From Candidatus Porisulfidus sp. TsSOB (GTDB taxonomy: Bacteria; Pseudomonadota; Gammaproteobacteria; Poriferisulfidales; Poriferisulfidaceae), in contig MRSX01000003.1 in NCBI GenBank assembly GCA_002631715.1, positions 361,286-425,285 on the forward strand: a stretch of 64,000 nt of DNA. Reading direction: 5' to 3'. Below the pieces are notes generated by a model. That model was given only the letters and a program-made list of their open reading frames with translations, had not been told where the DNA came from and did no database searches. Positions 7,257 through 21,308 of this stretch are shown here, in pieces (the stretch's first letter is position 1; each line of letters begins with the position of its first letter). Both the position numbers and the translations under genes were made by a program.

Positions 7257-8792
7257 GTGAAATTTCTCAACAACTTCCTATCCAGAAACCGCGGGCTCGT
7301 CATCGCCGGTTTTGTGGTTCCCGCCAGTTTCGTCTACCACAATGTCGAGAATCTTCGAAAACGGATTCATCGGATGTTGAGGAACACCAGCGCTGAACAC
7401 GACAAAGCCGTCCAGACGATCCAAGCTCATGTGCAGGCTTGCCATGCCACTGGAAAATCAATGTGCACCGCGCGCAAGCCATGGCGAACGATGTCGGTGC
7501 GCAGCGCCGAGTTCAAGAAAGACATGCAGCAGGTTTCCATCAACCTTTGCAATGTCCTTGAGGTCGACGAGAAACGTTTAATCGTTCGCACAGAGCCGAT
7601 GGTCACCGTGGGAGATATTACTTCCTTTCTTGTTCCCAGGGGATTCGCGCTCGCTGTCCAGCCCGAGATGGAAGATCTTACCCTTGGAGGTCTGTGCATG
7701 GGCATCGGCATTGCAACAGGCAGTCACCGAGAGGGCTGCCTGTTCGAGTCGGTCGAGGCCTTCGAGATCGTTACCGCTACCGGAGAGTTTGTTCGCGCCA
7801 CGCGTGACCAGAATGCCGACCTTTTCCACGCTCTGCCCTGTTCCCACGGCACCCTAGGCTTTCTCGTAAGTATTGAGTTTCGCATTGTCCCGATTCAGTC
7901 GCACGTCAAACTCGACTACGAACCATTCCACTCGATCGACGCCTTCTGTGCACGCCTTGAGGAGCTTACCGCTTCCTCCGACGCCCCGCGTTTCGTAGAA
8001 GGACTCGTCTTCTCCAAGGAATCCGGCGTCATACTCGTTGGCGACTACGCGACACCCCCGCCCGGCGCACGCATCAATCGTATCAATGATTACTATAAGC
8101 CATGGTTTTACAGCCATGTTGGCCAGTGTCTGAAGACCGGGGCTGCCAGCGAATACATTCCTGCCCGTCATTATTTCCACCGCCACACGCCTTCCGTGTA
8201 CTTCCAACTGAAGGACCTCATTCCTTTTGCCAACACATCTTGGTATCGCTATTTGTGGGCTTGGATGGGTGCGCCGAAGGTCTCTCTGTTGAAACTGACG
8301 GTAACCCGGGAGCTCCGGCGCCAAGCTTTTGAAAACCGCGTCGTGCAGGACATCATGGTACCGATTGAGAACCTTGCTGAGTCTGTCCGCCTTAGCGACG
8401 AACTGTTCGATATCTACCCACTTTGGGTTGGGCCGGTGCGCCTCTTTGACCACGGTGCGAACGAGGGTTTTTTGCGGAATCCGGCCAACGGCGGCAGTAG
8501 CCAGATGTACGTCGACCTTGGCATTTTCGGTATCCCGCCGAATGCCAAAGCCGGCAACTACGACCAGGTGCCAACCATGCGCCGCCTAGAGAAGTTCGTC
8601 CGTGAGCGTGGCGGTTACCAGATGCTCTATACCGACATCTATATGACTCGCACCGAATTCGAGCACATGTTTGAGCACCGGCTCTACCGGAATATGCGTA
8701 ACAAGTACGCTGTCGAAAACGCCTTCCCCGAGGTCTACGACAAAGTAATACCGGAGAGTTGGCTCATTGATCTGCGAAGCACATCACCATGA
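7257..8792 (+). CDS. FAD-linked oxidoreductase, DHCR24/DWF1-like (delta-24 sterol reductase family)
   Basis: 511 aa. N-terminal TM helix followed by a PCMH-type FAD-binding domain. Same length and architecture as DHCR24. Sits in the sterol cluster. GTG start. Confidence 0.55.
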   Translation: MKFLNNFLSRNRGLVIAGFVVPASFVYHNVENLRKRIHRMLRNTSAEHDKAVQTIQAHVQACHATGKSMCTARKPWRTMSVRSAEFKKDMQQVSINLCNVLEVDEKRLIVRTEPMVTVGDITSFLVPRGFALAVQPEMEDLTLGGLCMGIGIATGSHREGCLFESVEAFEIVTATGEFVRATRDQNADLFHALPCSHGTLGFLVSIEFRIVPIQSHVKLDYEPFHSIDAFCARLEELTASSDAPRFVEGLVFSKESGVILVGDYATPPPGARINRINDYYKPWFYSHVGQCLKTGAASEYIPARHYFHRHTPSVYFQLKDLIPFANTSWYRYLWAWMGAPKVSLLKLTVTRELRRQAFENRVVQDIMVPIENLAESVRLSDELFDIYPLWVGPVRLFDHGANEGFLRNPANGGSSQMYVDLGIFGIPPNAKAGNYDQVPTMRRLEKFVRERGGYQMLYTDIYMTRTEFEHMFEHRLYRNMRNKYAVENAFPEVYDKVIPESWLIDLRSTSP

Positions 8793-8883: not shown

Positions 8884-10221
8884 ATGCTGCTAGCGTTGAA
8901 TTTTGTGGCGCTGTGGGCAATACCCATCGTGGCTCAGGGCCGATTGTTTCGCGCCGGGTTACACCGTTTTCTGCGGCCCATCCACCGCCTCCTTGACCAT
9001 TCGGTTCTGTTGCGACACGTTGCCACAAAATACGTCTACCGGCGATCTGTGCATGCGGACTACTTTGCATCCGCAATATTTCTCATGATTGGTCTTGCGC
9101 TATCTCTCGCTGTACTTTTTACCTGGCAAATCTTGTTCGGAGAACTGCCATGGTGGCTCTTAGCGGCATACTATTTTGCATGGGTGGGATTTGGTGGCCG
9201 TGGTATGGGGACGGCATACACCTTGGCCCATCGCGAGGGCCATGTTGCAGGAGGCCGCATGTACCGGCCATGGATCGCCAAACACATTGGAAATATTTTT
9301 GAGAACCGCATCGGTCTATGGTACGGCCTCGTTCCGCACACGTTTTCGACATCGCATATTCTTCTTCATCACCGGCTGAATGCCGGCAAGGCAGACCCGC
9401 TTTACGTGTGGGATCTCGACCGCACCAAATTTAGCGACATGCTTTTGTATCAATGGCGGGCATTCGTGTACGTGACCGGCCTTGGCAGCATTCGAGAATT
9501 CCGCAGACAACAAGGCGTAAATCCGGCGATCCGAAAGGCGCATGCCAAGCTGTCGCGCGGCATGCGGATCTATTGGGTGTATGTGCCGGTGGCACTTGTT
9601 GCACTACTGGTGGCCACGGGCTCGAGTGTTTTATCGTCGCTCATGTTTCTGTTTTTTGTCTACATCCAACCGCTTTTTGCAATGTCGACGTTCATCGCAC
9701 TTGTGACTCTATCGCAGCATGGATTTCTTGAACATGACGAAAAAGGACGAAACCTGAAACACGTGGCTGCGATTACTATTTTAGGTGGTCATGACGATTC
9801 CTTCGGAGAAGACGATCATTTCTCACACCATTATTCTCCTGCTGTTATGCACGACAAACTGGCAGTGGCGCAATCCCTTGAAGAAAGCGAATGGGCTCGT
9901 TGTCACGGTTCCGTCTTCAAGGACACTTCCATAATCGAGATTGCGATTTTTTTGCTGCTTGGGCGGATTGACCGGCTGATTGATCGTCACTACGTAGATT
10001 ACTCAGGAGCACTGGGGAGAGATCAAATCGTCGAGCTGTTTACCCGCCGTGCAAAACGTAAGGAAATGAGCTATGAGGAATATGAATTTCGGTATCTTCC
10101 GGCACTAAGGGACAGCGTTCGCGATCACGTGAAACAAGGCCTCTTCAATAACGAAAACCATGCGTATATTTTCCAGGCCCATCACGAGATTGGTCCCGAG
10201 TTCAGGATGAGCCGAACTTGA
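8884..10221 (+). CDS. Membrane-bound His-box di-iron oxygenase (fatty-acid desaturase/hydroxylase superfamily), putative sterol desaturase/oxidase
   Basis: Multiple TM helices and three histidine boxes: HREGH, HILLHH, HDDSFGEDDHFSHHY. First ATG after the stop of the upstream gene taken as start; a TTG at 8806 is also possible. Confidence 0.5.
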   Translation: MLLALNFVALWAIPIVAQGRLFRAGLHRFLRPIHRLLDHSVLLRHVATKYVYRRSVHADYFASAIFLMIGLALSLAVLFTWQILFGELPWWLLAAYYFAWVGFGGRGMGTAYTLAHREGHVAGGRMYRPWIAKHIGNIFENRIGLWYGLVPHTFSTSHILLHHRLNAGKADPLYVWDLDRTKFSDMLLYQWRAFVYVTGLGSIREFRRQQGVNPAIRKAHAKLSRGMRIYWVYVPVALVALLVATGSSVLSSLMFLFFVYIQPLFAMSTFIALVTLSQHGFLEHDEKGRNLKHVAAITILGGHDDSFGEDDHFSHHYSPAVMHDKLAVAQSLEESEWARCHGSVFKDTSIIEIAIFLLLGRIDRLIDRHYVDYSGALGRDQIVELFTRRAKRKEMSYEEYEFRYLPALRDSVRDHVKQGLFNNENHAYIFQAHHEIGPEFRMSRT

Positions 10222-10233
10222 ACGAGCGGCGAC

Positions 10234-11301
10234 TTATTCAGTTCCTCGATTCTCGGGTTTGCGGGCCAGGAAGAAAAATGCCGGGGTAAAGAGACCGGAT
10301 TCGCCCCCTGCGACCAGTGCGTCCGCCCCCCTGTTCAGCAATGTGCTGACCATGGTGGAGCCTTTCGGAACGACCCGCAGCGTCTCCCCGACCCTTAAGG
10401 TCAAATTGGTCAGGGCGCGCCCGATGGGTGTGCGCGGAATGCTCGCGAGACTAAGGTCGCGACCCTGCAGGGCGCGATACCAAGGCATATCCGGATCCGC
10501 TTCGGGGGCGAGGTCGCGGGCTTCCAAAAACTCGAACCCAGCCGCGCTCAATGCGGGGCCGATTTCCGATGTGATGGTGATATCCGGTAGCCCATTCCCT
10601 TTCTCGATATCTTTCTTGATCCGAAGGTGCCGGGCATTCTCCGGATCGAAGTCCTCGGTGAGGCACCACTCGTAGCCCGCGAAGCAGGCTCCTGGGCGCA
10701 GGATGCGGAAGACCTCCCGGAACGCTGCGATCTTGTCCGGCGCGTGGGGCATGGACTCGATCGCGATGGCGGCGTCGTAGGAGTTGTCGTCCTCGGGAAT
10801 CTGCATGAAATCACCGTGGATGAAGCGGCACAGCGACTGGATGTCTTGGCTTTGTGCTTCGGCACGCTTGATCTGGTAGGCATTATTGTTGAGACCGACG
10901 AAACTGGCCCCGGAATAACGGGCCAGCGTGCGCATTGGTCCCCCGATCCCGCAGCCCAGGTCAATGACCTGCATCCCGGGTTTCAGTGACAGCTGATCAG
11001 CTAGGAAATGCTCGTGCCTGAGCAGTGACTCCTTGAAGCTTTCGCCTCGAAGCCGGGGCGCGAAGTGAAAGGACTGACCCCAGCCGAATTCGTAAAAGTC
11101 GGTCGCCAGGTCGTAGTAGTGATTGACGAGTATCTGGTAGTCCTCTTTCCTGTTCTCCAGGTCGTCATCGTGGAGCCCGGTGTACTGATCGACCGCCTGG
11201 GTCACTTCATCCGGAGTGAGATCCGAGAAGGAACGGGAACTCGATTGTTTGGTGGAGGTGCGGCTCATTCGGTTATCCTGCCAGTTCGCGCTCTTCTTCA
11301 A
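10234..11301 (-). CDS. Sterol C-24 methyltransferase (ERG6/SMT family)
   Basis: Signature YYDLATDFYEFGWGQSFHFA (SMT region I) and SAM motif VIDLGCGIGGP. ATG overlaps the stop of the upstream SQMO-OSC ORF (ATGA). Confidence 0.8.
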   Translation of the reverse strand: MKKSANWQDNRMSRTSTKQSSSRSFSDLTPDEVTQAVDQYTGLHDDDLENRKEDYQILVNHYYDLATDFYEFGWGQSFHFAPRLRGESFKESLLRHEHFLADQLSLKPGMQVIDLGCGIGGPMRTLARYSGASFVGLNNNAYQIKRAEAQSQDIQSLCRFIHGDFMQIPEDDNSYDAAIAIESMPHAPDKIAAFREVFRILRPGACFAGYEWCLTEDFDPENARHLRIKKDIEKGNGLPDITITSEIGPALSAAGFEFLEARDLAPEADPDMPWYRALQGRDLSLASIPRTPIGRALTNLTLRVGETLRVVPKGSTMVSTLLNRGADALVAGGESGLFTPAFFFLARKPENRGTE

Positions 11302-14300
11302 GAAGCGGCAGATACGCTGTGCGGCTCTTCCAGGGCCGCTGCCGCCAAAGGCACCGTGTCGCTCTCAATTGCGTCGGTAGCAAGGGAATCGGCAGTTGCC
11401 AGTTCCAGCCGGGCCCGGCGCCGTTGCTCATAGAGGCCAAGCGCGCGTAGGGGGAAATACTGCCGATACAGAACGTAGTCCAGCAGGGCCGTACGGAAAA
11501 AGACCCCGGCCATGTCTTGCTTGGGCCATGCGCCATCCGCGTTTTGGGTGTCGAGCAGGAACCGGGCACCCCGCGAGATCGCGGCCCAGTTGGGATCGTC
11601 CGCCTCAAGGAGCGCAATCAATGCCCATGCGGTCTGGATAATCTGGCTTTCGTCGTGTGCAACGTATTGGCCGGTGAAGCAACCGCTGTAGTGCTCACCC
11701 CATCCTCCGTCTCCGCGCTGACGGTCCAGCAGCCATTGGCAGGCCAAGCGTAGTACCGGATCGCCGGGGCGGGCCCCGGCTGCAAGCAGGCCCCTGATTC
11801 CGAAGGAAGTACCGTAGATGAACTGAACCCCCCATACGCCGCGCCACGATCCATTGCTTGCCTGAGTCCGGCGAAGCCAGGCGCCGGCTTGCGACATGGC
11901 ATCCGTCACTGCTTGGTCCGTGGTGTCCGGAAAGTGCTTCTTGCAGGCTGCGAGTGCCGCAAGGCAAGAAGCGGTGCACTCGACATAGGAATGTTCAGTC
12001 ATCGACTCGCCGAACATCTCGGCCGGATTCAGCCATTCAAGCCCGATTACGGAGCGTTGCGCTTCATAGCTGCCGAAACCGCCATCGCGGTTCTGGCCCC
12101 GCAGCATGAACTGGATCGCGTCTTTGAGCATGGTTGTGTTCGTCGCCTCGCGGTGGGCAGCGATAATTCCGAGCACTGCTTCCGCAGTGCAGTCGGTGAC
12201 CGGCCAGCCATGCCACTGTCCGGCAAAGCACCAGCCACCCTTGGGGTCGTTTCGAAAAGCCTCACGAAATCCTTCGAAACTGGTCTTGATTTGTTGCGTT
12301 TCCAGGAAATCGGCCCCGCGTTGGAGGGAATTTCGAACTTCAGGGGCCAGATCGAGTCTGGACATTGTTTCCAATGCTTGCAGGGCGAAGCCGGTATCCC
12401 ACGAAATGCTTCTCGCCCCGGTGACTCGTGCCCCGTATTCCTCGTCTTCCCAGATCCAGTCGTCCAATTTCTCGAGTGCTTGGCGACTGTCGGGGTCGTT
12501 CGGGTTGCGCAGCCATAAGGCCAGGATGTTGAGGAGCCCGCTGACCGGGGAGATGCTCGTGTGATTGGTCGTTCGCAGTTCCCATTGGATTCGCTCGGTG
12601 ATCGTGTCCATGCATCGAGCGCGCAGGTGTTTACTATGGAATCGTTCAAATAACTGCGAAAACCCATACCCGACCCGGAGCCATACACTGGGCCGCGCAT
12701 GGAGGTCGGCGCTTCGCAGACGATTGCGGCCCGCGGAAAAGCCGACGTTGGCAAAACCCTCGGGATATAGCTCTTCTCGCAGTGATGCGATCAAAGGCGT
12801 GACAGGTGCCTGAAACCGATATGAGTAGACAGCCGACATCGCCATGTAGATGAGCCGGGTATGGCAATACCAGTTGGAGGGGTGCAGCGGAATCCAACGC
12901 GGCAGGCTCCACAGTTCCGGCAGGATGGCGTTGATTCCGCGCCAGTCGTAGAGGTTGAGGAGCGCCAGCCAGAATTTTCCCCAACTCGGAATGCCGAGGA
13001 CTCCTTCGGTCTGCAGGAATTCCTGGGCCGGCTTCAGCAGTGGATCATCCCGCTCGACGCCAAGCAGCCTCGCCGCGACGTAAACCAGCGTGGTGACAAA
13101 CAAGTTGGGAGGCGGGTGCTCGTGCAGGCCCCATGCGCCTCCTTCTAGGCGAGTCTGTTCGAAAGACCGCAGCACGCGTCGGCGTCGGTCGGGATCGAGC
13201 GGCTGCTCCATGATGTAGTGCAGCAGTACGTACTGCGCGGTGAGCATGGGGCACCAAACCATCTCGCCTTCCCAGGCGCCATCCCCATCCTGGAGATCCA
13301 GCAGGCGCTCGCTCGCGCTCTTCAATGCCGGGCCGGCATCGGGCGATTCGACCGTCCACGGGCGGGCGGGTTGAGAGTCGTCGGCCTTCGACGGGATGGA
13401 GACCAGGAACGTGTGGGACCAAGTGGCCCGGATTTGCTCGTCCTCTCCTTCGCCCGTGTTTCTCGCCCGGTGCAACATCCGAGCACCCCGCAGCAACCAT
13501 TTGAGACGGCCCGAGAGTGAATTGAAGGTATCCCGGGCACGGCGCCAGGCAAGTTTGTCGAAGGATCGCGGCATTTCTCTGGCAATCGCCCGGACCATCG
13601 TCGTGAAAAACGCGGAACTCAGGTGGATAACCGATGTGTCTTCACAGGCGAGTAAACGCATGGTCCGGTCGCGCATCGTAGAATTTGCCCGCCAGCCTCG
13701 GTAGGTTGCATGTCGGAGAGCCACCACCTCGGCCCGATGATCGGCAAAGACCTCGTAGAGTCCTATGGCAAGGAACTCCGGAGTACGGATCGCCCGGAAA
13801 CGCTTCTTGGTGAAGTCGCGAAAGTCCCCGTTCTCGGCGAGTGCAAGCGCATCACCGAAACCGAGGGTGATTCCAACCGCCGACATGGGATGGTAGTGCC
13901 CGGCCGCATCGCCGATCAGCACTCGATTCGGACTCCCGTAGCTAACACGCGGCCTCAGCTTATTACTGGCAGTGCGAAACCGCCCCGCCCGCAGCGCTTC
14001 AACAAACGCGGGTCGGACTGATTCCGGCAACCAACCGGTGTACGAGTCCAACAGGAACCCAATCCGATCCCGGGGTGTCCAGCGATCCGCCGGAACATCT
14101 ACGACGATGCGCACGCCGCGCTCTCCGAGGCGGTACATGAGGATCGGCCCGGGTCCACCCCCCAACACGTACCCATAACCCTCCAACGGCAACGTCACGT
14201 CATCGACCAAAACTCCTACCATCCACGAGCAAGTTTTATGGTTCGTCGGCAAGCCCAGTGATCGACGCACGACCGAACCCCGACCGTCGGCACCGACGAT

Positions 14301-14759
14301 CCGCGCAGCCGCGACAGACTCATCGGTCCCGTTGCGAGTAAAAGTGATTCGTCCGTCTACGACCTCACGAACCTGTGCATTGAGAATGAAATCAATACTC
14401 GATTTGCTCTCGATCGCTTCGTGCAGATGCGAGACGAGCACCGCATGCTCGCAGGCCAACCCGTGAGCGCCGTCCGGATAGGGAAGTATGATCGGTTCCG
14501 AGTCGTCTTCCGGGCACACCACGAACCCGTTGCCTGCCCCGATGGGAGGCTGCGTGTCGAGCCCGATCCCGATCTCGCGCAGTATCCGCACGGCGGGGGG
14601 GTGCAGCCATTCTCCCGCTAGTCGCTTGGAAGCCTCGGGGCTCGCTTCGAGCAGGACAACCCGGGCGCCTTTTCGCGCGTAGGCGAGCGCACACACACTG
14701 CCGACTGGCCCCCCGCCGACAATCGCGACATCGTAATGCCGGGTGGGGGGGATGCTCAC
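11298..14759 (-). CDS. Fused squalene monooxygenase (N-terminal) and oxidosqualene cyclase (C-terminal)
   Basis: N-terminal half has the FAD motifs DVAIVGGGPVGS and LIGDAAGHYHP of squalene epoxidases. C-terminal half has QW repeats and VTDCTAEAV (OSC-type DCTAE, not SHC DxDDTA). One uninterrupted frame. Start taken at a GTG (14759) overlapping the CYP51 TGA; the ORF-track TTG at 14828 is the alternative. Confidence 0.8.
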   Translation of the reverse strand: MSIPPTRHYDVAIVGGGPVGSVCALAYARKGARVVLLEASPEASKRLAGEWLHPPAVRILREIGIGLDTQPPIGAGNGFVVCPEDDSEPIILPYPDGAHGLACEHAVLVSHLHEAIESKSSIDFILNAQVREVVDGRITFTRNGTDESVAAARIVGADGRGSVVRRSLGLPTNHKTCSWMVGVLVDDVTLPLEGYGYVLGGGPGPILMYRLGERGVRIVVDVPADRWTPRDRIGFLLDSYTGWLPESVRPAFVEALRAGRFRTASNKLRPRVSYGSPNRVLIGDAAGHYHPMSAVGITLGFGDALALAENGDFRDFTKKRFRAIRTPEFLAIGLYEVFADHRAEVVALRHATYRGWRANSTMRDRTMRLLACEDTSVIHLSSAFFTTMVRAIAREMPRSFDKLAWRRARDTFNSLSGRLKWLLRGARMLHRARNTGEGEDEQIRATWSHTFLVSIPSKADDSQPARPWTVESPDAGPALKSASERLLDLQDGDGAWEGEMVWCPMLTAQYVLLHYIMEQPLDPDRRRRVLRSFEQTRLEGGAWGLHEHPPPNLFVTTLVYVAARLLGVERDDPLLKPAQEFLQTEGVLGIPSWGKFWLALLNLYDWRGINAILPELWSLPRWIPLHPSNWYCHTRLIYMAMSAVYSYRFQAPVTPLIASLREELYPEGFANVGFSAGRNRLRSADLHARPSVWLRVGYGFSQLFERFHSKHLRARCMDTITERIQWELRTTNHTSISPVSGLLNILALWLRNPNDPDSRQALEKLDDWIWEDEEYGARVTGARSISWDTGFALQALETMSRLDLAPEVRNSLQRGADFLETQQIKTSFEGFREAFRNDPKGGWCFAGQWHGWPVTDCTAEAVLGIIAAHREATNTTMLKDAIQFMLRGQNRDGGFGSYEAQRSVIGLEWLNPAEMFGESMTEHSYVECTASCLAALAACKKHFPDTTDQAVTDAMSQAGAWLRRTQASNGSWRGVWGVQFIYGTSFGIRGLLAAGARPGDPVLRLACQWLLDRQRGDGGWGEHYSGCFTGQYVAHDESQIIQTAWALIALLEADDPNWAAISRGARFLLDTQNADGAWPKQDMAGVFFRTALLDYVLYRQYFPLRALGLYEQRRRARLELATADSLATDAIESDTVPLAAAALEEPHSVSAAS

Positions 14760-16144
14760 TGGAAAATGCTGGCCTGCGGGCGGCGGCGGTAACGGATTCG
14801 GCAGGGTTCCCTGGGGCCTGTCACCCAACTGCCGTAATTCGGTTCGGGAAACTCGGTGACGGGCTGAAAATCAAAGCGATCAAACAGCACGGTCCAGATT
14901 GCTTTCAGTTGCATGTAAGCAAAATGTTCACCGATGCACCGGTGTTTGCCGCCGCCAAAACTGATCAAGGCATAGTGGTGCTGTTTGCCCTCGGATGCAG
15001 GTGGGGCGAAACGGTCTGGGTTGAAGCGGTTCGGATCGGCAAACAGGTGGGGCAACCGTTGGGAGACCGCCGGCGACACCATGGCCAAGGCACCGGCTGG
15101 CACGACATGATCCTTGTAGTGCAAGGGCCTGAGTACCTTGCGGATTAGCATGATCAACGGCGGGTGCATCCGCTCGCATTCGCGAATGGCGTGCTCTAGT
15201 GTGACTTGGTGCCTGAGGCTCTCGTAGCTCACGGTTCCTGCCTCGCGGTAGGTGTCTTGCACCTCGTCTTTCACCCGCGCCAGGTACGACGGGGCCCTCA
15301 TGAGTTCCAGAAGGGTCCAGGTTGCGAGCACCGCGCTGGTGTGCTGGCCCGCGAACAGCACCGTCAGCAGGATTCCGGTAATCTCGTCATCGCTTGGGGC
15401 GTGGCCATCCTTGTACCGAGCGTTCATGAGGGTCTGCATGAAATCTTCAGGCTGGGCATCGGTTCGCCGACGTTCCGCCATGATCTGGCCGAAGAGCTTG
15501 GCGACTTTTCGGCGGGCCCGGTCGCGGCTCCGATGTGCCGGGATTGGGAGATAAGGGAAAAAGAACCCCAGGGTGTTGATGCCGTTTTGCAGTTCGTGGT
15601 ATGCCTCGGCGAATCCTGCGTCCAGCTGGGCCCGGACTTCCTCTCCAATGAGGCAACGGCTGGCGATCTTGACGGTGAGTTCGTTCATAGCGTGGGGCAG
15701 GTCGACTTCCCCATGCTCGCCGAGATCCTCGGCGAACTGCCAAGTCTCCTCGAACATGATGCGGGCGAACCGGCGCATCGCGGCTTCATTGAGCGCCGGA
15801 TACAGAAATCCCAATTGCTCGAGCATCAGTTCAGGCGTAGTGTCGTAAGCCACGCCACGCCCGAAGATGGGCACCGTGAACTGGTAGACCTCTTTGGCGC
15901 TGAGCTGGTCTTCGGGTGCGTGGAAGTAGAAGTCGTGAGCTTCGGGCCCGGTGAAGAGGAAGAATTCGCGCGGGCCGAGCCGGAACCGGATGAGCTCGCC
16001 CTGCTCGCGCCAGCCGCGCTGCAGCATCGCGATCGGGTCCTTCTGGAAATCCAGCAGATGGCCGATCAACGGCCACCTGCCCGCGACCTCGGGAATGGCC
16101 CGGGACTCCTGCGGCGAAAGTGGGGTGGAACGTACGGTGGTCAT
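14756..16144 (-). CDS. Sterol 14-alpha demethylase (cytochrome P450 CYP51)
   Basis: Heme loop FGGGKHRCIGEHFA, I-helix AGQHTSA and B' region YQFTVPIFGRGVAYD are CYP51 signatures. Start at MTTVRS, 14 nt after the reductase stop. Confidence 0.8.
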   Translation of the reverse strand: MTTVRSTPLSPQESRAIPEVAGRWPLIGHLLDFQKDPIAMLQRGWREQGELIRFRLGPREFFLFTGPEAHDFYFHAPEDQLSAKEVYQFTVPIFGRGVAYDTTPELMLEQLGFLYPALNEAAMRRFARIMFEETWQFAEDLGEHGEVDLPHAMNELTVKIASRCLIGEEVRAQLDAGFAEAYHELQNGINTLGFFFPYLPIPAHRSRDRARRKVAKLFGQIMAERRRTDAQPEDFMQTLMNARYKDGHAPSDDEITGILLTVLFAGQHTSAVLATWTLLELMRAPSYLARVKDEVQDTYREAGTVSYESLRHQVTLEHAIRECERMHPPLIMLIRKVLRPLHYKDHVVPAGALAMVSPAVSQRLPHLFADPNRFNPDRFAPPASEGKQHHYALISFGGGKHRCIGEHFAYMQLKAIWTVLFDRFDFQPVTEFPEPNYGSWVTGPREPCRIRYRRRPQASIFQ

Positions 16145-16158
16145 GTCGTCAGGTTGCT

Positions 16159-17253
16159 TCAATAGACGAATGGCAGCATCGCGAAACGCACTCGCTTCGT
16201 ATACCGCTCCCACAGTTCGCCGTACTTGGCGCGGCAGCGACGGTCGTCGCGTCTTGAGCGATGCGACAACAGACCCACCAACCACGCGGGCAGCAGGTAG
16301 GGCACCCAGGATGCGAATCCGGTGGTCAGGGCGAACGAAAAGTAAATGCAGATCTCGCCGGTATAGTTGAGATGCCGCCCGACTCCCCAGAACCCGGAGA
16401 CCAGCAGGCGCCCGTCCAGGGACTCGGCGGGCTTCCCCCAGATCTTGGCGTGGGAGTCACGCTTGAAACGGTGCTTTTGCCCGTTGGCGCCGCGGAAGAG
16501 CCAGAAGCCGAAGACAAACAGCAGGGTGATTGCGACGGCAGCGACGGGGGACAGGGGCTCGGTTGCATGGACCAGCCACCAGCCGGCAAGGCAATAGAAG
16601 AACGGCACCAGCACGTAGTCTCCCCAGACCAGCATCCATCCGAAGCGCTCGCTGACGATGTCCCAGGTGTGAACCATTCCGTATTCGAAGTGGAAGTAGT
16701 TGAGGACGTACAGGAAGGTGAAGGCCTGGTAAAGCATCATGGCCAAGGTCAGTTCGCCGTAGGTTTCGTATTGCACGGCGGCGAACGAGACGTTGAACAA
16801 CGCGAGGCCGATGAGGGAAGGGCGGTAACTGAAAAACTTCAGATCCACCCCAAACCAGGTCGGATGGCCTTCCACGCCATAGAAGAAGCCCTCCAGTCCT
16901 CTTGGGGAATCGCCCTGGGCTCGGGTGCCTTGGTAGTACAGCAAGGCGGAAAAAGCAAACGCGAATACGTTCGCCACCACGAACAGGGCGAGAAAGTGGG
17001 TATACAGCACCGAAAGAGAGAACCAGCCGGAGACTTGGGCAAGCCCTCCCACGACCATGGTCAGCAGGAACAGGGCAAGCCCATTGCTCCTGTAGATCCT
17101 TGATTTTCCATCGTAATCTGGACCCGTAATCCGGCGTCCGGGCAACAGCATCGAACCCAGGAACAGAAAGCCGAAGAATGCCAGCATCATGGCTGCCGCG
17201 TCGAGCAGGGTGCTGCCGGACAGCGCAATCAGCGAGAAGGGCAGTTCAGGCAT
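16159..17253 (-). CDS. Sterol reductase, ERG4/ERG24 family (C-14 or delta-24(28)/delta-7 reductase)
   Basis: Polytopic membrane protein with the C-terminal signature LLVSGFWGVGRHLNYTGEICIYFSFAL. Confidence 0.8.
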   Translation of the reverse strand: MPELPFSLIALSGSTLLDAAAMMLAFFGFLFLGSMLLPGRRITGPDYDGKSRIYRSNGLALFLLTMVVGGLAQVSGWFSLSVLYTHFLALFVVANVFAFAFSALLYYQGTRAQGDSPRGLEGFFYGVEGHPTWFGVDLKFFSYRPSLIGLALFNVSFAAVQYETYGELTLAMMLYQAFTFLYVLNYFHFEYGMVHTWDIVSERFGWMLVWGDYVLVPFFYCLAGWWLVHATEPLSPVAAVAITLLFVFGFWLFRGANGQKHRFKRDSHAKIWGKPAESLDGRLLVSGFWGVGRHLNYTGEICIYFSFALTTGFASWVPYLLPAWLVGLLSHRSRRDDRRCRAKYGELWERYTKRVRFAMLPFVY

Positions 17254-18343
17254 AGGTGTTGCCGTTCTCCGCTTTGCGTGCCAGGTATTCCCGCCACTTG
17301 CGCACGGTCACGTCCTGGAAAGCCTCGACCACGGGGTTGAACTCGACGGTCGGAGCGTCCCAATGTTTTTCGTAACCTTCCTGTTCTCCTTCGAGCGCGT
17401 ATTGATCCTGGGTGAGCAACGGGCCGATGAGGATGCGGTTCGAGATCTTTAGAACAAAGGTCATGGCGAAACGGGGAATGTGGACCGGCAGAAAGGGTAT
17501 CTTCAGCGACTTGAAATAGAACAAAAAGAAGGTCCGGGTGGTCCGCTCGTCGATGGGCAGCACGAAAAGCCAGTGTTTGATCCAGTCATCGGTGTTCGAC
17601 CATTGGTAAGGGTATTGGAAGCAGAGATCCATGTGATTGGTGTCGAGTTTTTTGTGGTCGACGAATAGCCCGGAGATACGCCCGCGTCCGACCTGAGTCT
17701 CGTAGGAGAGGTGCACGTCATCGCCGATGGTCTCGCAGCGGGTGAGGGTGGCGCCGACGAAAGGCCGGTATTCACGGTGCAGATGGGCATGAGAGAAGTC
17801 GCTCACGTTGTCGATCACCATAGAGTGGTGGGCCGACCAGGTGAAAGTGAGCGGGACACAGGCCCATCGGCCGCGTCCCTCGAGTTCGGGGATGTCCGGG
17901 ATCTGCCGCGATTCCGCCTTCTCCGGGTCTCCGGGAAACAACCAGACCAGGCCGTAACGGACTTTTACGGGGTAGGATCGGATCGAGACGTTCTGACAAC
18001 TTTCCCCGAGGTGCTCGCGAGGCCCTCCGGCACGTTGCCCCTCTCCGTCGTATTGCCAGCCATGGTAGGCGCAGACCAGCCGACAGTCCTCGACATGGCC
18101 GAGGGAAAGCTTGAGCTGGCGGTGGGCGCAACGATCCTCGACCGCATGGAACGAGCCGTCCTTCGCCCGGAACAGTGCGATGGCATGCTTCCAGAAAACG
18201 ACTTCAGTCACGCTTCCCGGCTTGACGCGACGTACTTCTTCGACCGCGTACCAATAATCCGGGTCCATGCCCGCGGCGCGTGCTTTCTGGCGTAAATTGC
18301 TGGCTTCATCGAAGCCAGGAGGCGGGCTTGTCATTGAGTCCAT
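17246..18343 (-). CDS. Rieske [2Fe-2S] non-heme iron oxygenase, SdmA-like (bacterial sterol C-4 demethylase oxygenase)
   Basis: Rieske motif CAHRQLKLSLGH...CAYHGWQY. Location between a sterol reductase and an NAD-dependent reductase mirrors sdmA-sdmB. Confidence 0.65.
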   Translation of the reverse strand: MDSMTSPPPGFDEASNLRQKARAAGMDPDYWYAVEEVRRVKPGSVTEVVFWKHAIALFRAKDGSFHAVEDRCAHRQLKLSLGHVEDCRLVCAYHGWQYDGEGQRAGGPREHLGESCQNVSIRSYPVKVRYGLVWLFPGDPEKAESRQIPDIPELEGRGRWACVPLTFTWSAHHSMVIDNVSDFSHAHLHREYRPFVGATLTRCETIGDDVHLSYETQVGRGRISGLFVDHKKLDTNHMDLCFQYPYQWSNTDDWIKHWLFVLPIDERTTRTFFLFYFKSLKIPFLPVHIPRFAMTFVLKISNRILIGPLLTQDQYALEGEQEGYEKHWDAPTVEFNPVVEAFQDVTVRKWREYLARKAENGNTYA

Positions 18344-18344
18344 T

Positions 18345-19487
18345 TCAGCCTCCGTCCGAAGTGATGGGTGTGCCTTGATCCGGCATGAGTTCTTCTACTT
18401 GTCCCGCGCCGTCCGTGCATGGGGGTTTCGCGTCCGGGTTCGTGATCGCCTTGCGCTGGTGGTAGTGAAAGGCGTAGGCTTCGTGGACCGCGGCGCGGAT
18501 GCTGGTCGGTCGGTAGCCGAGTTCCTCTTTCGCCTTGCTGTTGTTGGCATGGCGGCACTTTTGCAGCAGGCGGATGGCGCCGGGAGTGAAGCGCTGGGGG
18601 AAGCTCGGATGGAACCGGCTCAGGTAAAAACTGGCCACTTCCGAGAAAGCGAGCATCGCGCGGACTGGAATCCGCCGGTGCGGGCGCGGGATGCCGGAGA
18701 CTTCCTCGTACAGGTCGATGATGTCGGAGATGGTTTTGTACTCGGAACTGAAGATATATTTCTCGCCCGAGCGTCCTCGGTCCATGCACAACCGGTGTCC
18801 TTCAACGATGTCCCGTGCCGCGACAAACTCGAAGCCGCCATCGACGTAGGCATGGAGTTTGCCGTTCGTGTAATCGCACAGGGTTCTACCCAATCGCGAG
18901 GGGAAGAAATCGCTGCCCCCCACAACCGCGCAGCACGTCGCGACCAAGACGTCCTGTCCGGCTGACGCGGCGCGCCAGCACTCGTGTTCGACGAGTGTCT
19001 TGCTGCGCTCGTAGGGCATCGTACGTTCCATGGGATAGAAAAGCATCGTCTCGTCGCTGGGGGCGGAAGGGTCATCCAGGTTGTACCCGACCGCGCTGAA
19101 GGAGCCCGTCACGACCACCCGGCCGGCTTCCGTCTCCCGTGCCGCCTGCAGCATGTTGCGGGTGCCGAGAACGTTGCATTCGTATATTTCCCGACGGTGG
19201 GCGTGGTTTCCTTCGATGGTCGAAACCTTGGCTGCACAGTGATAGACGCCCTGGCAGCCCTCGACCGCACGCCTGACGGAATTCAAGTCCCGGAGGTCGC
19301 CGAACACGCGTTCGACCTCGAGGCCTTCCAGCGCCTCGTTGTTCTCTTCGTGTCTTAGCAGCACCCGGACCCGGGTGCCTTCGTCGAGTAGCCGGCGCAC
19401 GAGATTGGCGCCCACGTGTCCAGCCGCACCGGTAACGAAAACGGGTGCAGCCGATGAATTGCCGGGTGTGCTCGATCCTGAAGTCAT
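18345..19487 (-). CDS. NAD(P)-dependent epimerase/dehydratase (3-beta-HSD-like) family reductase, SdmB-like
   Basis: Rossmann motif VFVTGAAGHVGANLVRRL and catalytic YERSK. First gene of the minus-strand sterol operon. Confidence 0.65.
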   Translation of the reverse strand: MTSGSSTPGNSSAAPVFVTGAAGHVGANLVRRLLDEGTRVRVLLRHEENNEALEGLEVERVFGDLRDLNSVRRAVEGCQGVYHCAAKVSTIEGNHAHRREIYECNVLGTRNMLQAARETEAGRVVVTGSFSAVGYNLDDPSAPSDETMLFYPMERTMPYERSKTLVEHECWRAASAGQDVLVATCCAVVGGSDFFPSRLGRTLCDYTNGKLHAYVDGGFEFVAARDIVEGHRLCMDRGRSGEKYIFSSEYKTISDIIDLYEEVSGIPRPHRRIPVRAMLAFSEVASFYLSRFHPSFPQRFTPGAIRLLQKCRHANNSKAKEELGYRPTSIRAAVHEAYAFHYHQRKAITNPDAKPPCTDGAGQVEELMPDQGTPITSDGG

Positions 19488-19747
19488 CTTGGCCCTGATT
19501 CCGAAACTCTGGTTATTTCCGTCCGTTGTTCGGCGTCATCGAGGGCGCACGCAGGCGAATACGTTTGATGGACAAGCGCGTCACGGAATTAGCCGCTCCA
19601 CGATATTTTCTTCAAGCCCATCGGGTAGCTGGGCACCGATCTGCCTGCCAGTCATCCCTCGCATATGACTGATGACATAATTCTAACAAACTTATAGTTT
19701 GGCACCGAAGTGCGCAGACCTGCAGAATTTTTTGAGAGTGAGGGTGC

Positions 19748-20077
19748 CTATTTCGCAGGAGCGAAGAGGATTACTAGGGTGAGAATGCCGGTTATGGTTC
19801 CGGTTGCCCCGCCCGCGACGGCCAGGATGTGCCAAGAGAGTTTATTGAACCTTGCTTCCATCTCCCCACGCAGTCTAAATTCCATCTCCGCCAAGTCAGC
19901 CTTCGTCGCTAACTCGCTTTGCGCATCCTGAAGGGTCTCGACCAAGGTCACGGCCTGTTTGTCTCCGAATTCTGCTTTCTTCAGATTCTTGACAGCCCGC
20001 AGTGTATCAAAGTTCGGCGGGGTGACCTTTTTGCGCGCATCGGTTGTGGCTTCGGACCTTTTTGCGCTCGGGTTCAT
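19748..20077 (-). CDS. DUF1640-like coiled-coil protein with C-terminal TM helix
   Basis: LATKADLAEMEFRLRGEMEARFNKL... followed by a hydrophobic tail. Start at MNPSAKR with a strong SD (AAGGAGA). Confidence 0.45.
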   Translation of the reverse strand: MNPSAKRSEATTDARKKVTPPNFDTLRAVKNLKKAEFGDKQAVTLVETLQDAQSELATKADLAEMEFRLRGEMEARFNKLSWHILAVAGGATGTITGILTLVILFAPAK

Positions 20078-20389
20078 ATCGGTTCTCCTTGACGGGGGCG
20101 GGATGAATGTGGGGAGACTCTTTCTATTGAGGGTCTCCATGGCTAGGTTCGGGATGATGCCATGAGATCGGTGAAAATCAAGGAAAAATGGTCGGAATTT
20201 TTAGACCGTTTTTTCTAAATTAGAATCAAACGGTTAGAGATCAAACTGAATGCCTGTGAGTCGGATTTTCGAGAGTTTTTCGTGTTTTTAGTTTCGTGGG
20301 CTCGTCGATTCCTGCAGAGTGCGGATTTTTCGACTCGGCCGGATGGATCAGACCCGGATAACCATACTAAGGGCTTCCGGAGAAGGGAT

Positions 20390-20779
20390 TCACGGAACTG
20401 AGAGCCAGCCGCGGATTTCGGCTTGGATGCTTCTTATCTGCCTGAGCGCAGCTTGAATTTCGGAAGGCTCAGGAGGTCTTGGAAATTCGCCTTCGGCATC
20501 CGGATAACGCCAGGCGGTTGCTGCCCCGGTGAGGCTGTCGAGTTTGACGAGGCTTTTCCTGAGAGGGTGTTCTTGGGCTAGTTGTTCGGTAATTCGGGTG
20601 ATGTCGTGGGTACGAAGATCCGGGAGCCCTTCGTGCAGGCACACGGCACGCGCGAGTTTTTCTGCAGCCTGCTGGGCGTGGAATGCCGCCAGGTCCGGGA
20701 GGTCTGGAAGGAGAAGATCGACGCCAGCGATATCCCGTTCGGCGGTCTTCAGGAATCCTAGGACAAGCGGAGAGGTCAT
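20390..20779 (-). CDS. HEPN domain protein (toxin component of a HEPN/MNT pair)
   Basis: AAFHAQQAAEKLARA-type HEPN helix. ATGA overlap with the upstream MNT gene. Confidence 0.6.
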   Translation of the reverse strand: MTSPLVLGFLKTAERDIAGVDLLLPDLPDLAAFHAQQAAEKLARAVCLHEGLPDLRTHDITRITEQLAQEHPLRKSLVKLDSLTGAATAWRYPDAEGEFPRPPEPSEIQAALRQIRSIQAEIRGWLSVP

Positions 20780-21308
20780 CGCAGGGGGAATGTCTCGCGA
20801 TAGCGTTTCCAGAACGGACCATCAACGCGCGCATCCAGCAATTTTCCCTCCCGGTCGACCGCGTAAGGGAGCATGCCGGGCACTTTCCGATTCTTCTCGA
20901 ACGCAGAATACTGGCAAGGAACTACGTCCACCGGGACACCACACCCGGAAATGGGTTTCCGAGCCGTCAGGTAATCGAGAGGTTGGTCGTCCGGGGTGAT
21001 CACCATCAGGTCGAAGTCACTGTCCGAGCGCGCGGTGCCGCACGCGCGGCTGCCGAACAGGAAAATGGCATCCGGATTGAATGCGATAGCCAGATTCATG
21101 GTCAGAACGGAAAGAGCGACTTCCGCGTTGCGGAATGGGCCAAGACTCTCATCTGCCGCTGCGGCCTCGTGCCTTGGCTGAGGCGCATTGCGAACGTATT
21201 CCAGGACTAGGCCAATCAATTCCGGGTCATCTTTGATGGAATTAACCAATTCGCGCACATCGGCTTGCTGATCTTGGCGTACGCGGAAACTGATGATGGG
21301 GGTATTCA
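20776..21308 (-). CDS. Minimal nucleotidyltransferase (MNT) antitoxin with N-terminal extension
   Basis: LFGSRACGTARSDSDFDLMV nucleotidyltransferase motif. Start at MNTPIISFRV with an AGGAGG SD. The N-terminal ~50 aa may form a ribbon-helix-helix. Confidence 0.6.

What the first reader, a model, noticed from the sequence alone, without database searches (positions are those of the whole stretch)
17246..19487. Bacterial-type C-4 demethylation pair (Rieske oxygenase + NAD-dependent reductase) leading the operon
The first two genes of the minus-strand operon are a Rieske non-heme oxygenase (CxH...CxxH) and a 3-beta-HSD-like NAD(P) reductase (YERSK). They are separated by a single nucleotide. This matches the SdmA/SdmB system described in Methylococcus as the bacterial alternative to ERG25/26/27. 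The cluster thus combines a bacterial C-4 solution with eukaryote-like CYP51, ERG24-family and SMT enzymes.
Basis: partly seen in the sequence, partly recalled or inferred. Interest (0 to 1): 0.6.

Follow-up and report, generated by a model that had tools for sequence, protein, structure and literature searches.

The report
Bacterial sterol C-4 demethylase gene pair
Two adjacent genes at the head of a bacterial sterol-synthesis operon are clear relatives of SdmB and SdmA, the bacterial enzymes that remove methyl groups from carbon 4 of sterols; the reading is right, but the same operon has already been published from sponge-associated bacteria, so it is a confirmation and not a discovery.

Summary
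ORF 18345-19487(-) is a 380-aa extended short-chain dehydrogenase (SDR) with GAAGHVG, S129 and Y159-ERS-K163. ORF 17246-18343(-) is a 365-aa Rieske oxygenase with C72xH74...C91xxH94 and H185/H189/D313. They are joined as TGA-a-ATG. One correction: the reductase comes first.

Their best family models are NCBIfam SdmB (306 bits) and SdmA (403 bits; next family 40). They are 43% and 45% identical to the authentic Methylococcus pair. The oxygenase groups with that SdmA and away from other Rieske oxygenases (100% bootstrap for the wider clade, 60% for the strict one). In 80 of 97 related loci sdmB sits directly upstream of sdmA.

The operon is sdmB-sdmA-ERG24-CYP51-(fused squalene monooxygenase::oxidosqualene cyclase)-SMT. 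It lies between recA and mutS in an uncultured gammaproteobacterium. Sponge metagenomes carry it at 81-92% protein identity.

Brown et al. 2023 and Kelly et al. 2022 already published this architecture. Brown et al. name sdmAB in it.

Not settled: whether this pair removes one C-4 methyl (methanotroph type), both (Calothrix type), or needs a third enzyme (Enhygromyxa type).

Verdict: interpretation supported, new member of a known kind, low interest.

The parts
18345..19487 (-). sdmB-like gene: NAD(P)-dependent extended SDR of 380 aa, the first gene of the operon. Predicted 3-beta-hydroxysteroid-4-carboxylate dehydrogenase (decarboxylating) and 3-ketosteroid reductase.
   Evidence: Pfam Epimerase, 3Beta_HSD and NAD_binding. 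The top NCBIfam hit is NF052578 SdmB at 306.5 bits over model positions 4-322 of 328; HpnA scores 233. It is 43% identical over 332 aa to the Methylococcus SdmB. GxxGxxG, S129, Y159 and K163 are invariant. About 35 residues at the C-terminus extend beyond the model.
17246..18343 (-). sdmA-like gene: Rieske [2Fe-2S] non-haem iron monooxygenase of 365 aa, the second gene. Predicted sterol C-4 methyl oxidase.
   Evidence: Pfam Rieske plus VanA_C. NF052579 SdmA scores 403.1 bits over positions 4-348 of 351; the next family scores 40. It is 45% identical to Methylococcus SdmA P0333. Ligands C72, H74, C91, H94, H185, H189 and D313 are invariant. The AlphaFold2 model has pLDDT 89, and the nearest solved folds are GxtA, SxtT, DdmC and NdmA.
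18341..18347 (-). sdmB stop / sdmA start junction, TGA-a-ATG, with a 1-nt spacer at 18344.
   Evidence: Read directly. Among relatives the commonest junction is a 4-nt overlap, found in 27 of the 80 adjacent pairs.
19488..19747 (-). 260-nt untranslated region upstream of sdmB, the presumed promoter region.
   Evidence: No consensus sigma-70 site was found on the operon strand. The region is conserved only in contigs of the same sample.
16159..17253 (-). ERG4/ERG24-family sterol C-14 reductase of 364 aa. It overlaps the end of sdmA by 8 nt.
   Evidence: Pfam ERG4_ERG24, 8e-71. The best solved structure is 4quv, a delta(14)-sterol reductase, at 3e-72.
14756..16144 (-). CYP51 sterol 14-alpha-demethylase of 462 aa, without a ferredoxin fusion.
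   Evidence: Pfam p450. The best solved structures are the CYP51 entries 7jj1 and 6mcw at 1.3e-102. Gene call.
11298..14759 (-). Single ORF fusing squalene monooxygenase (N-terminal) to oxidosqualene cyclase (C-terminal), 1153 aa.
   Evidence: Pfam SE and FAD_binding_3 cover residues 32-419 of the 1176-aa ORF; SQHop_cyclase_N and _C cover 503-1134. TIGR03463 (oxidosqualene cyclase) scores 736 bits. The two parts are fused in 27 related loci.
10234..11268 (-). Sterol C-24 methyltransferase (SMT/ERG6-like) of 344 aa, the last gene of the operon.
   Evidence: Pfam Sterol_MT_C plus Methyltransf_11.
9259..10221 (+). FA_desaturase-like membrane protein of 320 aa, convergent on the operon. An accessory gene of unknown role.
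   Evidence: Pfam FA_desaturase, 1.8e-9. No NCBIfam match and no solved relative. Present in L004 and L018, absent in L006.
7461..8792 (+). DHCR24-like FAD-linked oxidoreductase of 443 aa, an accessory gene.
   Evidence: Pfam FAD_binding_4. In Brown et al. Supplementary Data 1, a gene two gene numbers beyond the SMT of the T. swinhoei Chromatiales MAG cluster is 40.8% identical to human DHCR24.

Best explanation
The two genes are sdmB and sdmA. They encode the bacterial, non-eukaryotic C-4 sterol demethylation system, and they are co-transcribed at the head of a six-gene sterol-synthesis operon in an uncultured gammaproteobacterium that is most likely a sponge symbiont.

Proposed mechanism:
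1. SdmA is a Rieske monooxygenase without a beta subunit, probably a trimer. It takes electrons from a redox partner that is not encoded nearby. It uses O2 at a 2-His-1-carboxylate iron site to oxidise a C-4 methyl of the lanosterol- or cycloartenol-derived intermediate stepwise to the carboxylate.
2. SdmB is an NAD(P)-dependent extended SDR with a Ser-Tyr-Lys triad. It oxidises the 3-beta-hydroxyl, which triggers decarboxylation, and then reduces the 3-ketone back to the alcohol.

Shown here: homology, intact cofactor and catalytic residues, conserved pairing, and the sterol-gene context.

Inferred from published work on the Methylococcus, Calothrix and Enhygromyxa homologues: the chemistry.

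Not known: how many methyl groups are removed. I lean towards both. Brown et al. report that sponge-type SdmB proteins are closer to the Calothrix SdmB, which demethylates twice (52-54% identity), than to the Methylococcus one (43-45%). The cluster also carries late-pathway side-chain enzymes, and the bacterial SMTs tested by Brown et al. acted on 4-desmethyl sterols (desmosterol, 24-methylenecholesterol).
For: - **Family models.** SdmB scores 306.5 bits and SdmA 403.1 bits, both full length and both top hits.
- **Authentic reference pair.** P0333 and L164:7107-8093 score 710 and 690 bits and sit beside bstABC, as published. The window proteins are 45% and 43% identical to them.
- **The cut-off is narrow.** sdmB-sdmA pairs from other Methylococcales MAGs score only 375-384 and 302-313 bits, no better than the window pair.
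- **Trees.** The SdmA-like clade has 100% bootstrap against other Rieske oxygenases once two divergent myxobacterial sequences are included. The SdmB ingroup has 89%. The two trees are congruent, each with a 100% sponge clade.
- **Pairing.** sdmB lies immediately upstream of sdmA in 80 of 97 loci. Most of the rest have only CYP51 between them.
- **Residues.** All cofactor and catalytic residues are conserved.
- **Fold.** The model has pLDDT 89 and matches Rieske monooxygenases that lack a beta subunit.
- **Context.** ERG24, CYP51, SQMO::OSC and SMT follow with overlaps or gaps of 30 nt or less.
- **Literature.** The chemistry and the three functional variants are in PMC10202945. The same cluster in sponge metagenomes, with sdmAB named, is in PMC10070321.
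Against: - There is no biochemical test of any sponge-clade pair.
- Both proteins fall below NCBI's equivalog cut-off of 600 bits.
- The margin of SdmB over the HpnA model is modest, 306 against 233 bits.
- The strict ingroup has only 60% bootstrap, because two divergent myxobacterial sequences wander.
- The trees are neighbour-joining, not maximum likelihood. They lack the Calothrix and E. salina reference proteins, which I could not retrieve.
- No ferredoxin or reductase partner is evident among the roughly 40 of 54 window ORFs that were annotated.
- The E. salina SdmAB homologues are insufficient on their own, so homology does not guarantee a complete demethylase.
Confidence: 0.85

Rival explanations
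1. The pair is an incomplete C-4 demethylase of the Enhygromyxa type. [quoted passage not shown] A third SDR (SdmC-like) encoded elsewhere in the genome would then be needed.
For: E. salina SdmAB alone gives only a 4-methylaldehyde and needs SdmC. In Brown et al. Supplementary Data 1, sponge-type SdmB proteins are about equally similar to E. salina SdmB (48-51%) and to SdmC (50-52%).
Against: tblastn finds no second SdmB-like gene in the 64-kb window. SdmC is reported to be restricted to the Nannocystaceae. Sponge-type SdmB is closest to the Calothrix SdmB, which is sufficient with its SdmA. The rest of the genome was not available to search.
Confidence: 0.1
2. The genes are what automatic annotation calls them: an aromatic ring-hydroxylating dioxygenase alpha subunit, and a dihydroflavonol-reductase-, sugar-epimerase- or HpnA-like enzyme. 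On this reading they are unrelated to sterol demethylation and merely lie next to sterol genes.
For: Source names for close homologues read 'aromatic ring-hydroxylating dioxygenase subunit alpha'. The HpnA model scores 233 bits. Solved relatives of the reductase include cinnamoyl-CoA and dihydroflavonol reductases. Kelly et al. list a 'DFR' among the genes that commonly flank the core of these clusters.
Against: The SdmA model scores ten times higher than any aromatic-dioxygenase model. The authentic SdmB itself cross-hits the HpnA model at 274 bits. No beta subunit is present, and the fold is that of the Rieske monooxygenases that lack a beta subunit. The pairing and the linkage to sterol genes hold across at least seven phyla.
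Confidence: 0.02
3. The pair acts in steroid breakdown, as a KshA-like ring hydroxylase with a 3-beta-hydroxysteroid dehydrogenase, rather than in biosynthesis.
For: KshA structures appear among the weak hits (4qdc 5.6e-7, 2zyl 3.3e-6). The reductase carries a 3Beta_HSD domain.
Against: KshA ranks far below DdmC and SxtT, and far below the SdmA model. None of the ORFs annotated here resembles KshB, KstD or a ring-cleavage enzyme. The operon partners are all biosynthetic: OSC, CYP51, ERG24 and SMT.
Confidence: 0.02

Closest known systems
SdmA/SdmB of Methylococcus capsulatus (MCA1016/MCA1017; Lee et al. 2018 PNAS, cited via PMC10202945 and PMC10942540; NCBIfam NF052579 and NF052578)
   Same: Same two protein families, matched over their full length at 45% and 43% identity. 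The same Rieske, iron-site and Ser-Tyr-Lys residues. The genes are adjacent and presumably co-transcribed.
   Different: The gene order is reversed: sdmA then sdmB in Methylococcus, next to the bstABC transporter genes. Here the order is sdmB then sdmA, next to ERG24, CYP51 and OSC. The window proteins score 403 and 306 bits against a cut-off of 600. The Methylococcus pair removes only one C-4 methyl; the number removed here is unknown.
Sterol gene clusters of sponge-associated bacteria (Brown et al. 2023, PMC10070321: A. aerophoba JGIcombinedJ30088_10000835, P. ficiformis LXNJ01003202, T. swinhoei Chromatiales MAG; Kelly et al. 2022, PMC9531527)
   Same: Where the supplement gives numbered gene IDs (the A. 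aerophoba scaffold and the T. swinhoei MAG), they run in the same order: sdmB-sdmA-ERG24-ERG11/CYP51-(one gene hitting both ERG1 and ERG7)-SMT. The T. swinhoei MAG also has a DHCR24 homologue just beyond the SMT. The published P. ficiformis scaffold LXNJ01003202 (L013) is 77% (SdmA) and 81% (SdmB) identical to the window. Other sponge-metagenome contigs (L004, L006) are 81-92% identical across the operon.
   Different: This is a different contig from a different sample (ENA ERZ24894577). The sdmAB genes of these clusters were assigned by BLAST only and never assayed; only the SMTs were tested.
Calothrix sp. NIES-4105 SdmAB (Lee, Wei and Welander 2023, PMC10202945)
   Same: The pair lies inside a sterol gene cluster with OSC and CYP51. 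Brown et al. report 52-54% identity between sponge-type SdmB proteins and the Calothrix SdmB, the highest among the characterised references.
   Different: The Calothrix pair removes both C-4 methyls. I could not retrieve its sequences, so the window pair was not compared with it directly.
Enhygromyxa salina SdmA/SdmB/SdmC (PMC10202945)
   Same: Homologous Rieske and SDR components.
   Different: Complete demethylation there needs a second SDR, SdmC. No SdmB paralogue is present in the window.
Eukaryotic C-4 demethylation complex ERG25/SMO + ERG26/NSDHL + ERG27
   Same: The same overall chemistry: methyl to carboxylate, decarboxylation driven by 3-dehydrogenation, then 3-ketoreduction. SdmB is a distant SDR relative of NSDHL (6jkg, E = 1.6e-9).
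   Different: The oxidase is a soluble Rieske enzyme, not a membrane di-iron fatty-acid-hydroxylase-family protein. One SDR is thought to do the work of both ERG26 and ERG27. From my own recollection of the enzyme nomenclature entry, the Methylococcus enzyme attacks the 4-beta methyl, whereas the eukaryotic enzymes attack the 4-alpha methyl.

Membership tests
SdmA (4beta-methylsterol monooxygenase, NF052579) | N-terminal Rieske [2Fe-2S] domain with CxH...CxxH ligands | tested here: met
   C72, H74, C91 and H94 are invariant in 40 ingroup sequences. Pfam Rieske, 9.8e-21.
SdmA (4beta-methylsterol monooxygenase, NF052579) | VanA_C-type catalytic domain with a 2-His-1-carboxylate iron site, and no beta subunit | tested here: met
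   Pfam VanA_C, 2.5e-13. H185, H189, D313 and the bridging D182 are invariant. The fold matches DdmC, SxtT, GxtA and NdmA. The assignment of D313 as an iron ligand is inferred from invariance, not from geometry.
SdmA (4beta-methylsterol monooxygenase, NF052579) | Best full-length match is the SdmA model, well separated from other Rieske families | tested here: met
   403.1 bits over model positions 4-348 of 351. The next family scores 40.3 bits.
SdmA (4beta-methylsterol monooxygenase, NF052579) | Score at or above NCBI's equivalog cut-off of 600 bits | tested here: not met
   403.1 is below 600. The cut-off is narrow. Methylococcus, Methylotetracoccus and Methyloprofundus proteins score 686-714, but sdmB-sdmA pairs from other Methylococcales MAGs score only 375-384.
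SdmA (4beta-methylsterol monooxygenase, NF052579) | Groups with characterised SdmA and apart from other Rieske oxygenases | tested here: met
   Neighbour-joining, 100 bootstraps. Ingroup plus two divergent myxobacterial sequences against 12 other Rieske proteins: 100. Strict ingroup: 60. Only Methylococcus stands in for the characterised enzymes.
SdmA (4beta-methylsterol monooxygenase, NF052579) | Encoded beside an SdmB partner and linked to sterol-synthesis genes | tested here: met
   1-nt spacing to sdmB. Adjacency in 80 of 97 loci. OSC, CYP51 and ERG24 lie in the same operon.
SdmA (4beta-methylsterol monooxygenase, NF052579) | Oxidises a sterol C-4 methyl group to the carboxylate | not testable with these tools
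   Requires heterologous expression and GC-MS, as in PMC10202945.
SdmB (sterol demethylase protein, NF052578) | Extended SDR with a GxxGxxG dinucleotide fold and a Ser-Tyr-Lys triad | tested here: met
   G20/G23/G26, S129, Y159 and K163 are invariant in 34 homologues.
SdmB (sterol demethylase protein, NF052578) | Best full-length match is the SdmB model rather than HpnA or another SDR | tested here: met
   306.5 bits against HpnA at 233.3. The authentic SdmB also cross-hits HpnA, at 273.7. The margin is modest.
SdmB (sterol demethylase protein, NF052578) | Score at or above the equivalog cut-off of 600 bits | tested here: not met
   306.5 is below 600. The sdmA-adjacent reductases of the Methylococcales MAGs score 302-313.
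SdmB (sterol demethylase protein, NF052578) | Groups with characterised SdmB, and its tree agrees with that of the partner SdmA | tested here: met
   43% identity to Methylococcus SdmB. Ingroup bootstrap 89. The sponge clade has 100 in both trees. No HpnA sequence was available as an outgroup.
SdmB (sterol demethylase protein, NF052578) | Decarboxylating 3-dehydrogenase activity plus 3-ketoreductase activity | not testable with these tools
   Biochemical. Known homologues differ in this respect: the E. salina SdmB is insufficient.
Sponge-symbiont sterol operon (Brown et al. 2023; Kelly et al. 2022) | Gene order sdmB-sdmA-ERG24-CYP51-(ERG1::ERG7)-SMT on one strand | tested here: met
   for the window. 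for the published and related loci.
Eukaryotic ERG25/ERG26/ERG27 system | A membrane FA_hydroxylase-family C-4 methyl oxidase (ERG25/SMO) | tested here: not met
   None of the eight cluster proteins has a FA_hydroxylase domain. The only histidine-box protein belongs to the FA_desaturase family. The rest of the genome was not examined.

The most novel reading that the evidence does not exclude
In this multi-phylum sponge-symbiont clade, the two-gene sdmB-sdmA pair alone removes both C-4 methyl groups. Together with the fused squalene monooxygenase::oxidosqualene cyclase, CYP51, ERG24, SMT and the accessory DHCR24-like and FA_desaturase-like enzymes, it would then give a wholly bacterial route to 24-alkylated 4-desmethyl sterols. 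The uncharacterised FA_desaturase-like protein would supply a nuclear or side-chain desaturation by an enzyme type not used by eukaryotes. That would strengthen the case that bacteria can make sponge-type sterane biomarker precursors without host input.
Probability: 0.3. Interest if true: 0.55.

Novelty: new member of a known kind. Interest (0 to 1): 0.22.

Why it matters
C-4 demethylation is the step where bacterial and eukaryotic sterol synthesis use unrelated oxidases. SdmAB homologues are therefore a marker that a sterol pathway is bacterial in origin rather than copied wholesale from eukaryotes.

In sponge symbionts the matter bears on whether 24-alkylated steranes can be read as animal biomarkers. 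That argument has already been made in print with near-identical clusters, so this window adds one more long, well-assembled example and no new idea.

What remains open, and testable with this sequence, is how many methyl groups the sponge-clade pair removes.

Tried and rejected
- **NCBIfam cut-off as a membership test.** Both proteins fail the 600-bit cut-off. So do sdmB-sdmA pairs from other Methylococcales MAGs, while authentic Methylococcus proteins pass. I treat the cut-off as genus-narrow, not as evidence against homology.
- **Retrieving reference genomes.** I tried to fetch M. capsulatus, Calothrix NIES-4105 and E. salina loci through one genome-contig scan, using an alignment headed by P0126. 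P0126, which I had assumed to be Methylococcales, has a Bacteroidota MAG as its best genome match (48%). Methylococcus was recovered instead through a second protein search and the look-up of encoding contigs. The Calothrix and E. salina sequences were never obtained, so the one-methyl or two-methyl question rests on identities published by Brown et al..
- **Promoter and terminator scan** of 9900-20500: nothing above the shuffle expectation.
- **Lee et al. 2018** (PMC6003346) is not held. Its content is cited second-hand.
- **SdmB/SdmC paralogue in the window:** none found.
- **Redox partner for the Rieske enzyme:** none found among the window genes annotated.
- **Rfam and tRNA scans:** only one tRNA-Ser.
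- **Steroid catabolism (KshA-like) and aromatic dioxygenase readings:** considered and rejected on score gaps and on context.

Full report
**1. Observation**

The minus strand carries two ORFs at exactly the reported coordinates.

ORF 18345-19487 encodes 380 aa. Pfam assigns it the Epimerase, 3Beta_HSD and NAD-binding domains of an extended short-chain dehydrogenase. It has GAAGHVG at residue 20, S129 and Y159-E-R-S-K163.

ORF 17246-18343 encodes 365 aa with a Rieske domain (residues 31-111) and a VanA_C catalytic domain (169-356). The Rieske ligands are C72-A-H74 and C91-A-Y-H94.

The junction reads TGA-a-ATG, so the genes are one nucleotide apart. The order needs correcting: the reductase is the first gene and the oxygenase the second.

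**2. Family assignment**

Against NCBIfam, the reductase hits NF052578 (sterol demethylase protein SdmB) first. The score is 306.5 bits over positions 4-322 of 328. HpnA comes next at 233 bits.

The oxygenase hits NF052579 (4beta-methylsterol monooxygenase, SdmA) at 403.1 bits over positions 4-348 of 351. The next family scores 40 bits.

Both scores are below the 600-bit equivalog cut-offs, so I looked for an authentic reference. Protein P0333 is labelled MULTISPECIES [Methylococcus]. It is followed by a 328-aa SDR and preceded by MMPL, phosphonate-binding-like and TAtT-like genes. That is the bstABC-sdmAB arrangement described for M. capsulatus (PMC10942540). The pair scores 710 and 690 bits.

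The window proteins are 45% (339 aa, E = 4e-106) and 43% (332 aa, E = 1e-83) identical to them. These values match the 44-47% and 43-45% that Brown et al. report for sponge-metagenome homologues against MCA1016 and MCA1017.

sdmB-sdmA pairs in other Methylococcales MAGs score only 375-384 and 302-313 bits. The cut-off therefore delimits a narrow group. Failing it says little about homology.

**3. Phylogeny and synteny**

A metagenome scan and a genome scan gave 160 related loci.

tblastn of the eight cluster proteins against them shows a clear pattern. Nearly every locus whose SdmA homologue is at least 50% identical also has an SdmB homologue directly upstream on the same strand. The count is 80 of 97 loci with enough upstream sequence. 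The commonest junction is a 4-nt overlap, and most exceptions simply have CYP51 between the two genes. Loci at 36% identity or less (cyanobacteria, Streptomyces, Acetobacter and others) have no adjacent SdmB homologue and no sterol genes.

Neighbour-joining trees with 100 bootstraps give these supports:

| Group | Tree | Bootstrap |
|---|---|---|
| SdmA-like clade incl. two divergent myxobacterial sequences, vs other Rieske proteins | SdmA | 100 |
| Strict SdmA ingroup | SdmA | 60 |
| SdmB ingroup | SdmB | 89 |
| Sponge-associated clade of 16 sequences, containing the window | both | 100 |

The sponge clade spans Gammaproteobacteria, Alphaproteobacteria, Chloroflexota and Nitrospirales. That spread fits the horizontal transfer proposed by Kelly et al..

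**4. Residues and fold**

In an alignment of 28 homologues, C72, H74, C91, H94, D182, H185, H189 and D313 are invariant. S129, Y159 and K163 of the reductase are invariant in 34 homologues.

An AlphaFold2 model of the oxygenase has mean pLDDT 89. Its nearest solved folds are Rieske monooxygenases that lack a beta subunit: GxtA, SxtT, dicamba monooxygenase, NdmA and a guaiacol demethylase, all at about 20% identity. No solved SdmA structure appeared among the sequence or fold matches. The reductase is distantly related to human NSDHL (6jkg, E = 1.6e-9).

**5. Context**

The operon runs in this order:
- sdmB
- sdmA
- an ERG24-family reductase (best solved structure 4quv, 3e-72)
- CYP51 (best 6mcw and 7jj1, 1e-102; no ferredoxin fusion)
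- one 1153-aa ORF fusing squalene monooxygenase to oxidosqualene cyclase
- a sterol methyltransferase

Gaps between consecutive genes range from an 8-nt overlap to about 30 nt.

An FA_desaturase-like gene and a DHCR24-like gene converge on the operon from the other strand.

The cluster lies between mutS and a HEPN/nucleotidyltransferase pair followed by recA, recX and alaS. RecA is 74-76% identical to Thioalkalivibrio and Ectothiorhodosinus proteins, so the host is a gammaproteobacterium.

The exact SdmA sequence occurs on two contigs of ENA assembly ERZ24894577. The closest public relatives are contigs from sponge metagenomes, at 81-92% protein identity across the operon: LXNI01001569, and the Aplysina aerophoba scaffold JGIcombinedJ30088_10000241.

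Conservation across more distant relatives starts at sdmB. That is the only support for 'leading the operon', because the promoter scan found nothing.

**6. Mechanism**

Published work supplies the chemistry.
- In Methylococcus, SdmA and SdmB together remove one C-4 methyl using O2.
- Expressed alone, the Calothrix and Enhygromyxa SdmA homologues give a 4-methylaldehyde. The Calothrix SdmB alone gives lanosterone.
- Calothrix SdmAB together remove both methyls.
- Enhygromyxa needs a second SDR, SdmC.

By homology, the window SdmA should oxidise a C-4 methyl stepwise. The window SdmB should then carry out the decarboxylating 3-dehydrogenation and the re-reduction.

The number of methyls removed cannot be read from the sequence. 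I lean towards two, for two reasons. Brown et al. report sponge-type SdmB closest to the Calothrix SdmB. The cluster also carries late-pathway side-chain enzymes, and the bacterial SMTs tested by Brown et al. acted on 4-desmethyl sterols.

No SdmC-like paralogue lies in the window. No redox partner is evident among the window genes annotated.

**7. Comparison with what is known, and novelty**

The architecture is already in the literature. Brown et al. 2023 list sdmB, sdmA, ERG24, ERG11, one gene matching both ERG1 and ERG7, and SMT, with consecutively numbered gene IDs on an Aplysina scaffold and in a Theonella-associated Chromatiales MAG. The latter also has a DHCR24 homologue just beyond the SMT. 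A Nitrospira MAG carries the same gene set on neighbouring genes. For the two Petrosia scaffolds the same homologues are listed without gene numbers.

One of those published scaffolds, LXNJ01003202, is among my loci, at 77% and 81% identity to the window pair.

Kelly et al. 2022 found the ERG24-CYP51-LSS core in 115 of 537 Ircinia MAGs from 10 phyla. They noted that SdmA and SdmB were probably among the unannotated flanking genes.

The window is thus a new, long and well-assembled member of a described kind. Interest is low. The open point is biochemical: one methyl or two.

Noticed in passing
window 11298-14759 (-): Squalene monooxygenase and oxidosqualene cyclase are fused in one 1153-aa ORF. 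The fusion recurs in 27 of 50 related loci with a hit, including nearly all sponge-clade loci that reach that far and three Polyangiaceae MAGs. Brown et al. Supplementary Data 1 gives one gene ID for both ERG1 and ERG7, but neither 'fusion' nor 'fused' occurs in the supplementary files, and 'fusion' does not occur in the main text. Possible substrate channelling of the epoxide has not been studied.
   Followed up: partly
window 7461-10221 (+): A DHCR24-like FAD oxidoreductase and an FA_desaturase-like membrane protein converge on the operon. The FA_desaturase-like protein has no NCBIfam match and no solved relative. The pair is present in L004 and L018. It is absent in L006, where mutS follows the SMT directly, so it is an accessory insertion. 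The desaturase-like protein is a candidate for an unassigned sterol desaturation.
   Followed up: partly
L002:7111-8500 (second contig of the same sample): A strain-variant contig carries the same operon, but a 1-nt insertion splits CYP51 into products of 232 and 227 aa. This is either a real pseudogene or a long-read assembly error.
   Followed up: partly
L164:6001-8093 compared with window 17246-19487; also L103, L106, L107, L109: There are two gene orders. Methylococcus has sdmA then sdmB next to bstABC, and its proteins pass the NCBIfam cut-offs. Several Methylococcales MAGs have sdmB then sdmA, are 50-56% identical to the window pair, and fail the cut-offs. Whether methanotrophs carry two distinct pair types was not resolved.
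   Followed up: partly
L043-L081, L103, L104, L107, L113 (flanks of sdmB-sdmA): About 30 loci, many of them Methylococcales-like or from non-sponge metagenomes, have a DHCR24-like FAD-binding gene (36-43% identical to the window's) within 2-3 kb of sdmB-sdmA, but no OSC or CYP51 nearby.
   Followed up: no
SdmA and SdmB trees; L085-L115: The sponge-associated clade has 100% bootstrap in both trees and mixes Gammaproteobacteria, Alphaproteobacteria, Chloroflexota/Dehalococcoidia and Nitrospirales. This points to transfer of the whole operon between unrelated symbionts. By RecA, the window's host is a gammaproteobacterium near the Ectothiorhodospiraceae.
   Followed up: partly
window 45842-51163: A low-GC stretch (0.44-0.50, against about 0.60 elsewhere). 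It encodes a HipA-family toxin kinase, GT2 and GT9 glycosyltransferases, a short UDP-glucose dehydrogenase-like ORF and an FkbM methyltransferase, with a GT1 glycosyltransferase gene just upstream at 44244-45845. It is probably an acquired surface-polysaccharide island.
   Followed up: partly
window 20390-21516 (-): A HEPN / nucleotidyltransferase (toxin-antitoxin type) pair lies between recA and the operon. It is conserved only in the closest relatives, L003-L006.
   Followed up: no
window 35627-37477 (+): dxs, the first enzyme of the MEP isoprenoid pathway, lies 16 kb from the sterol operon.
   Followed up: no
window 18345-18450 (-), C-terminus of SdmB: The reductase has a tail of about 35 residues, rich in proline, glycine and acidic residues, beyond the 328-position SdmB model. 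Tails of similar length occur in the sponge-clade homologues (about 381-382 aa) but not in Methylococcus (328 aa).
   Followed up: no
P0139 (a representative of the SdmA family): One SdmA-family cluster representative lacks the Rieske ligands (CKDGK... and CSCGRH in place of CxH and CxxH). It may be a degenerate paralogue.
   Followed up: no
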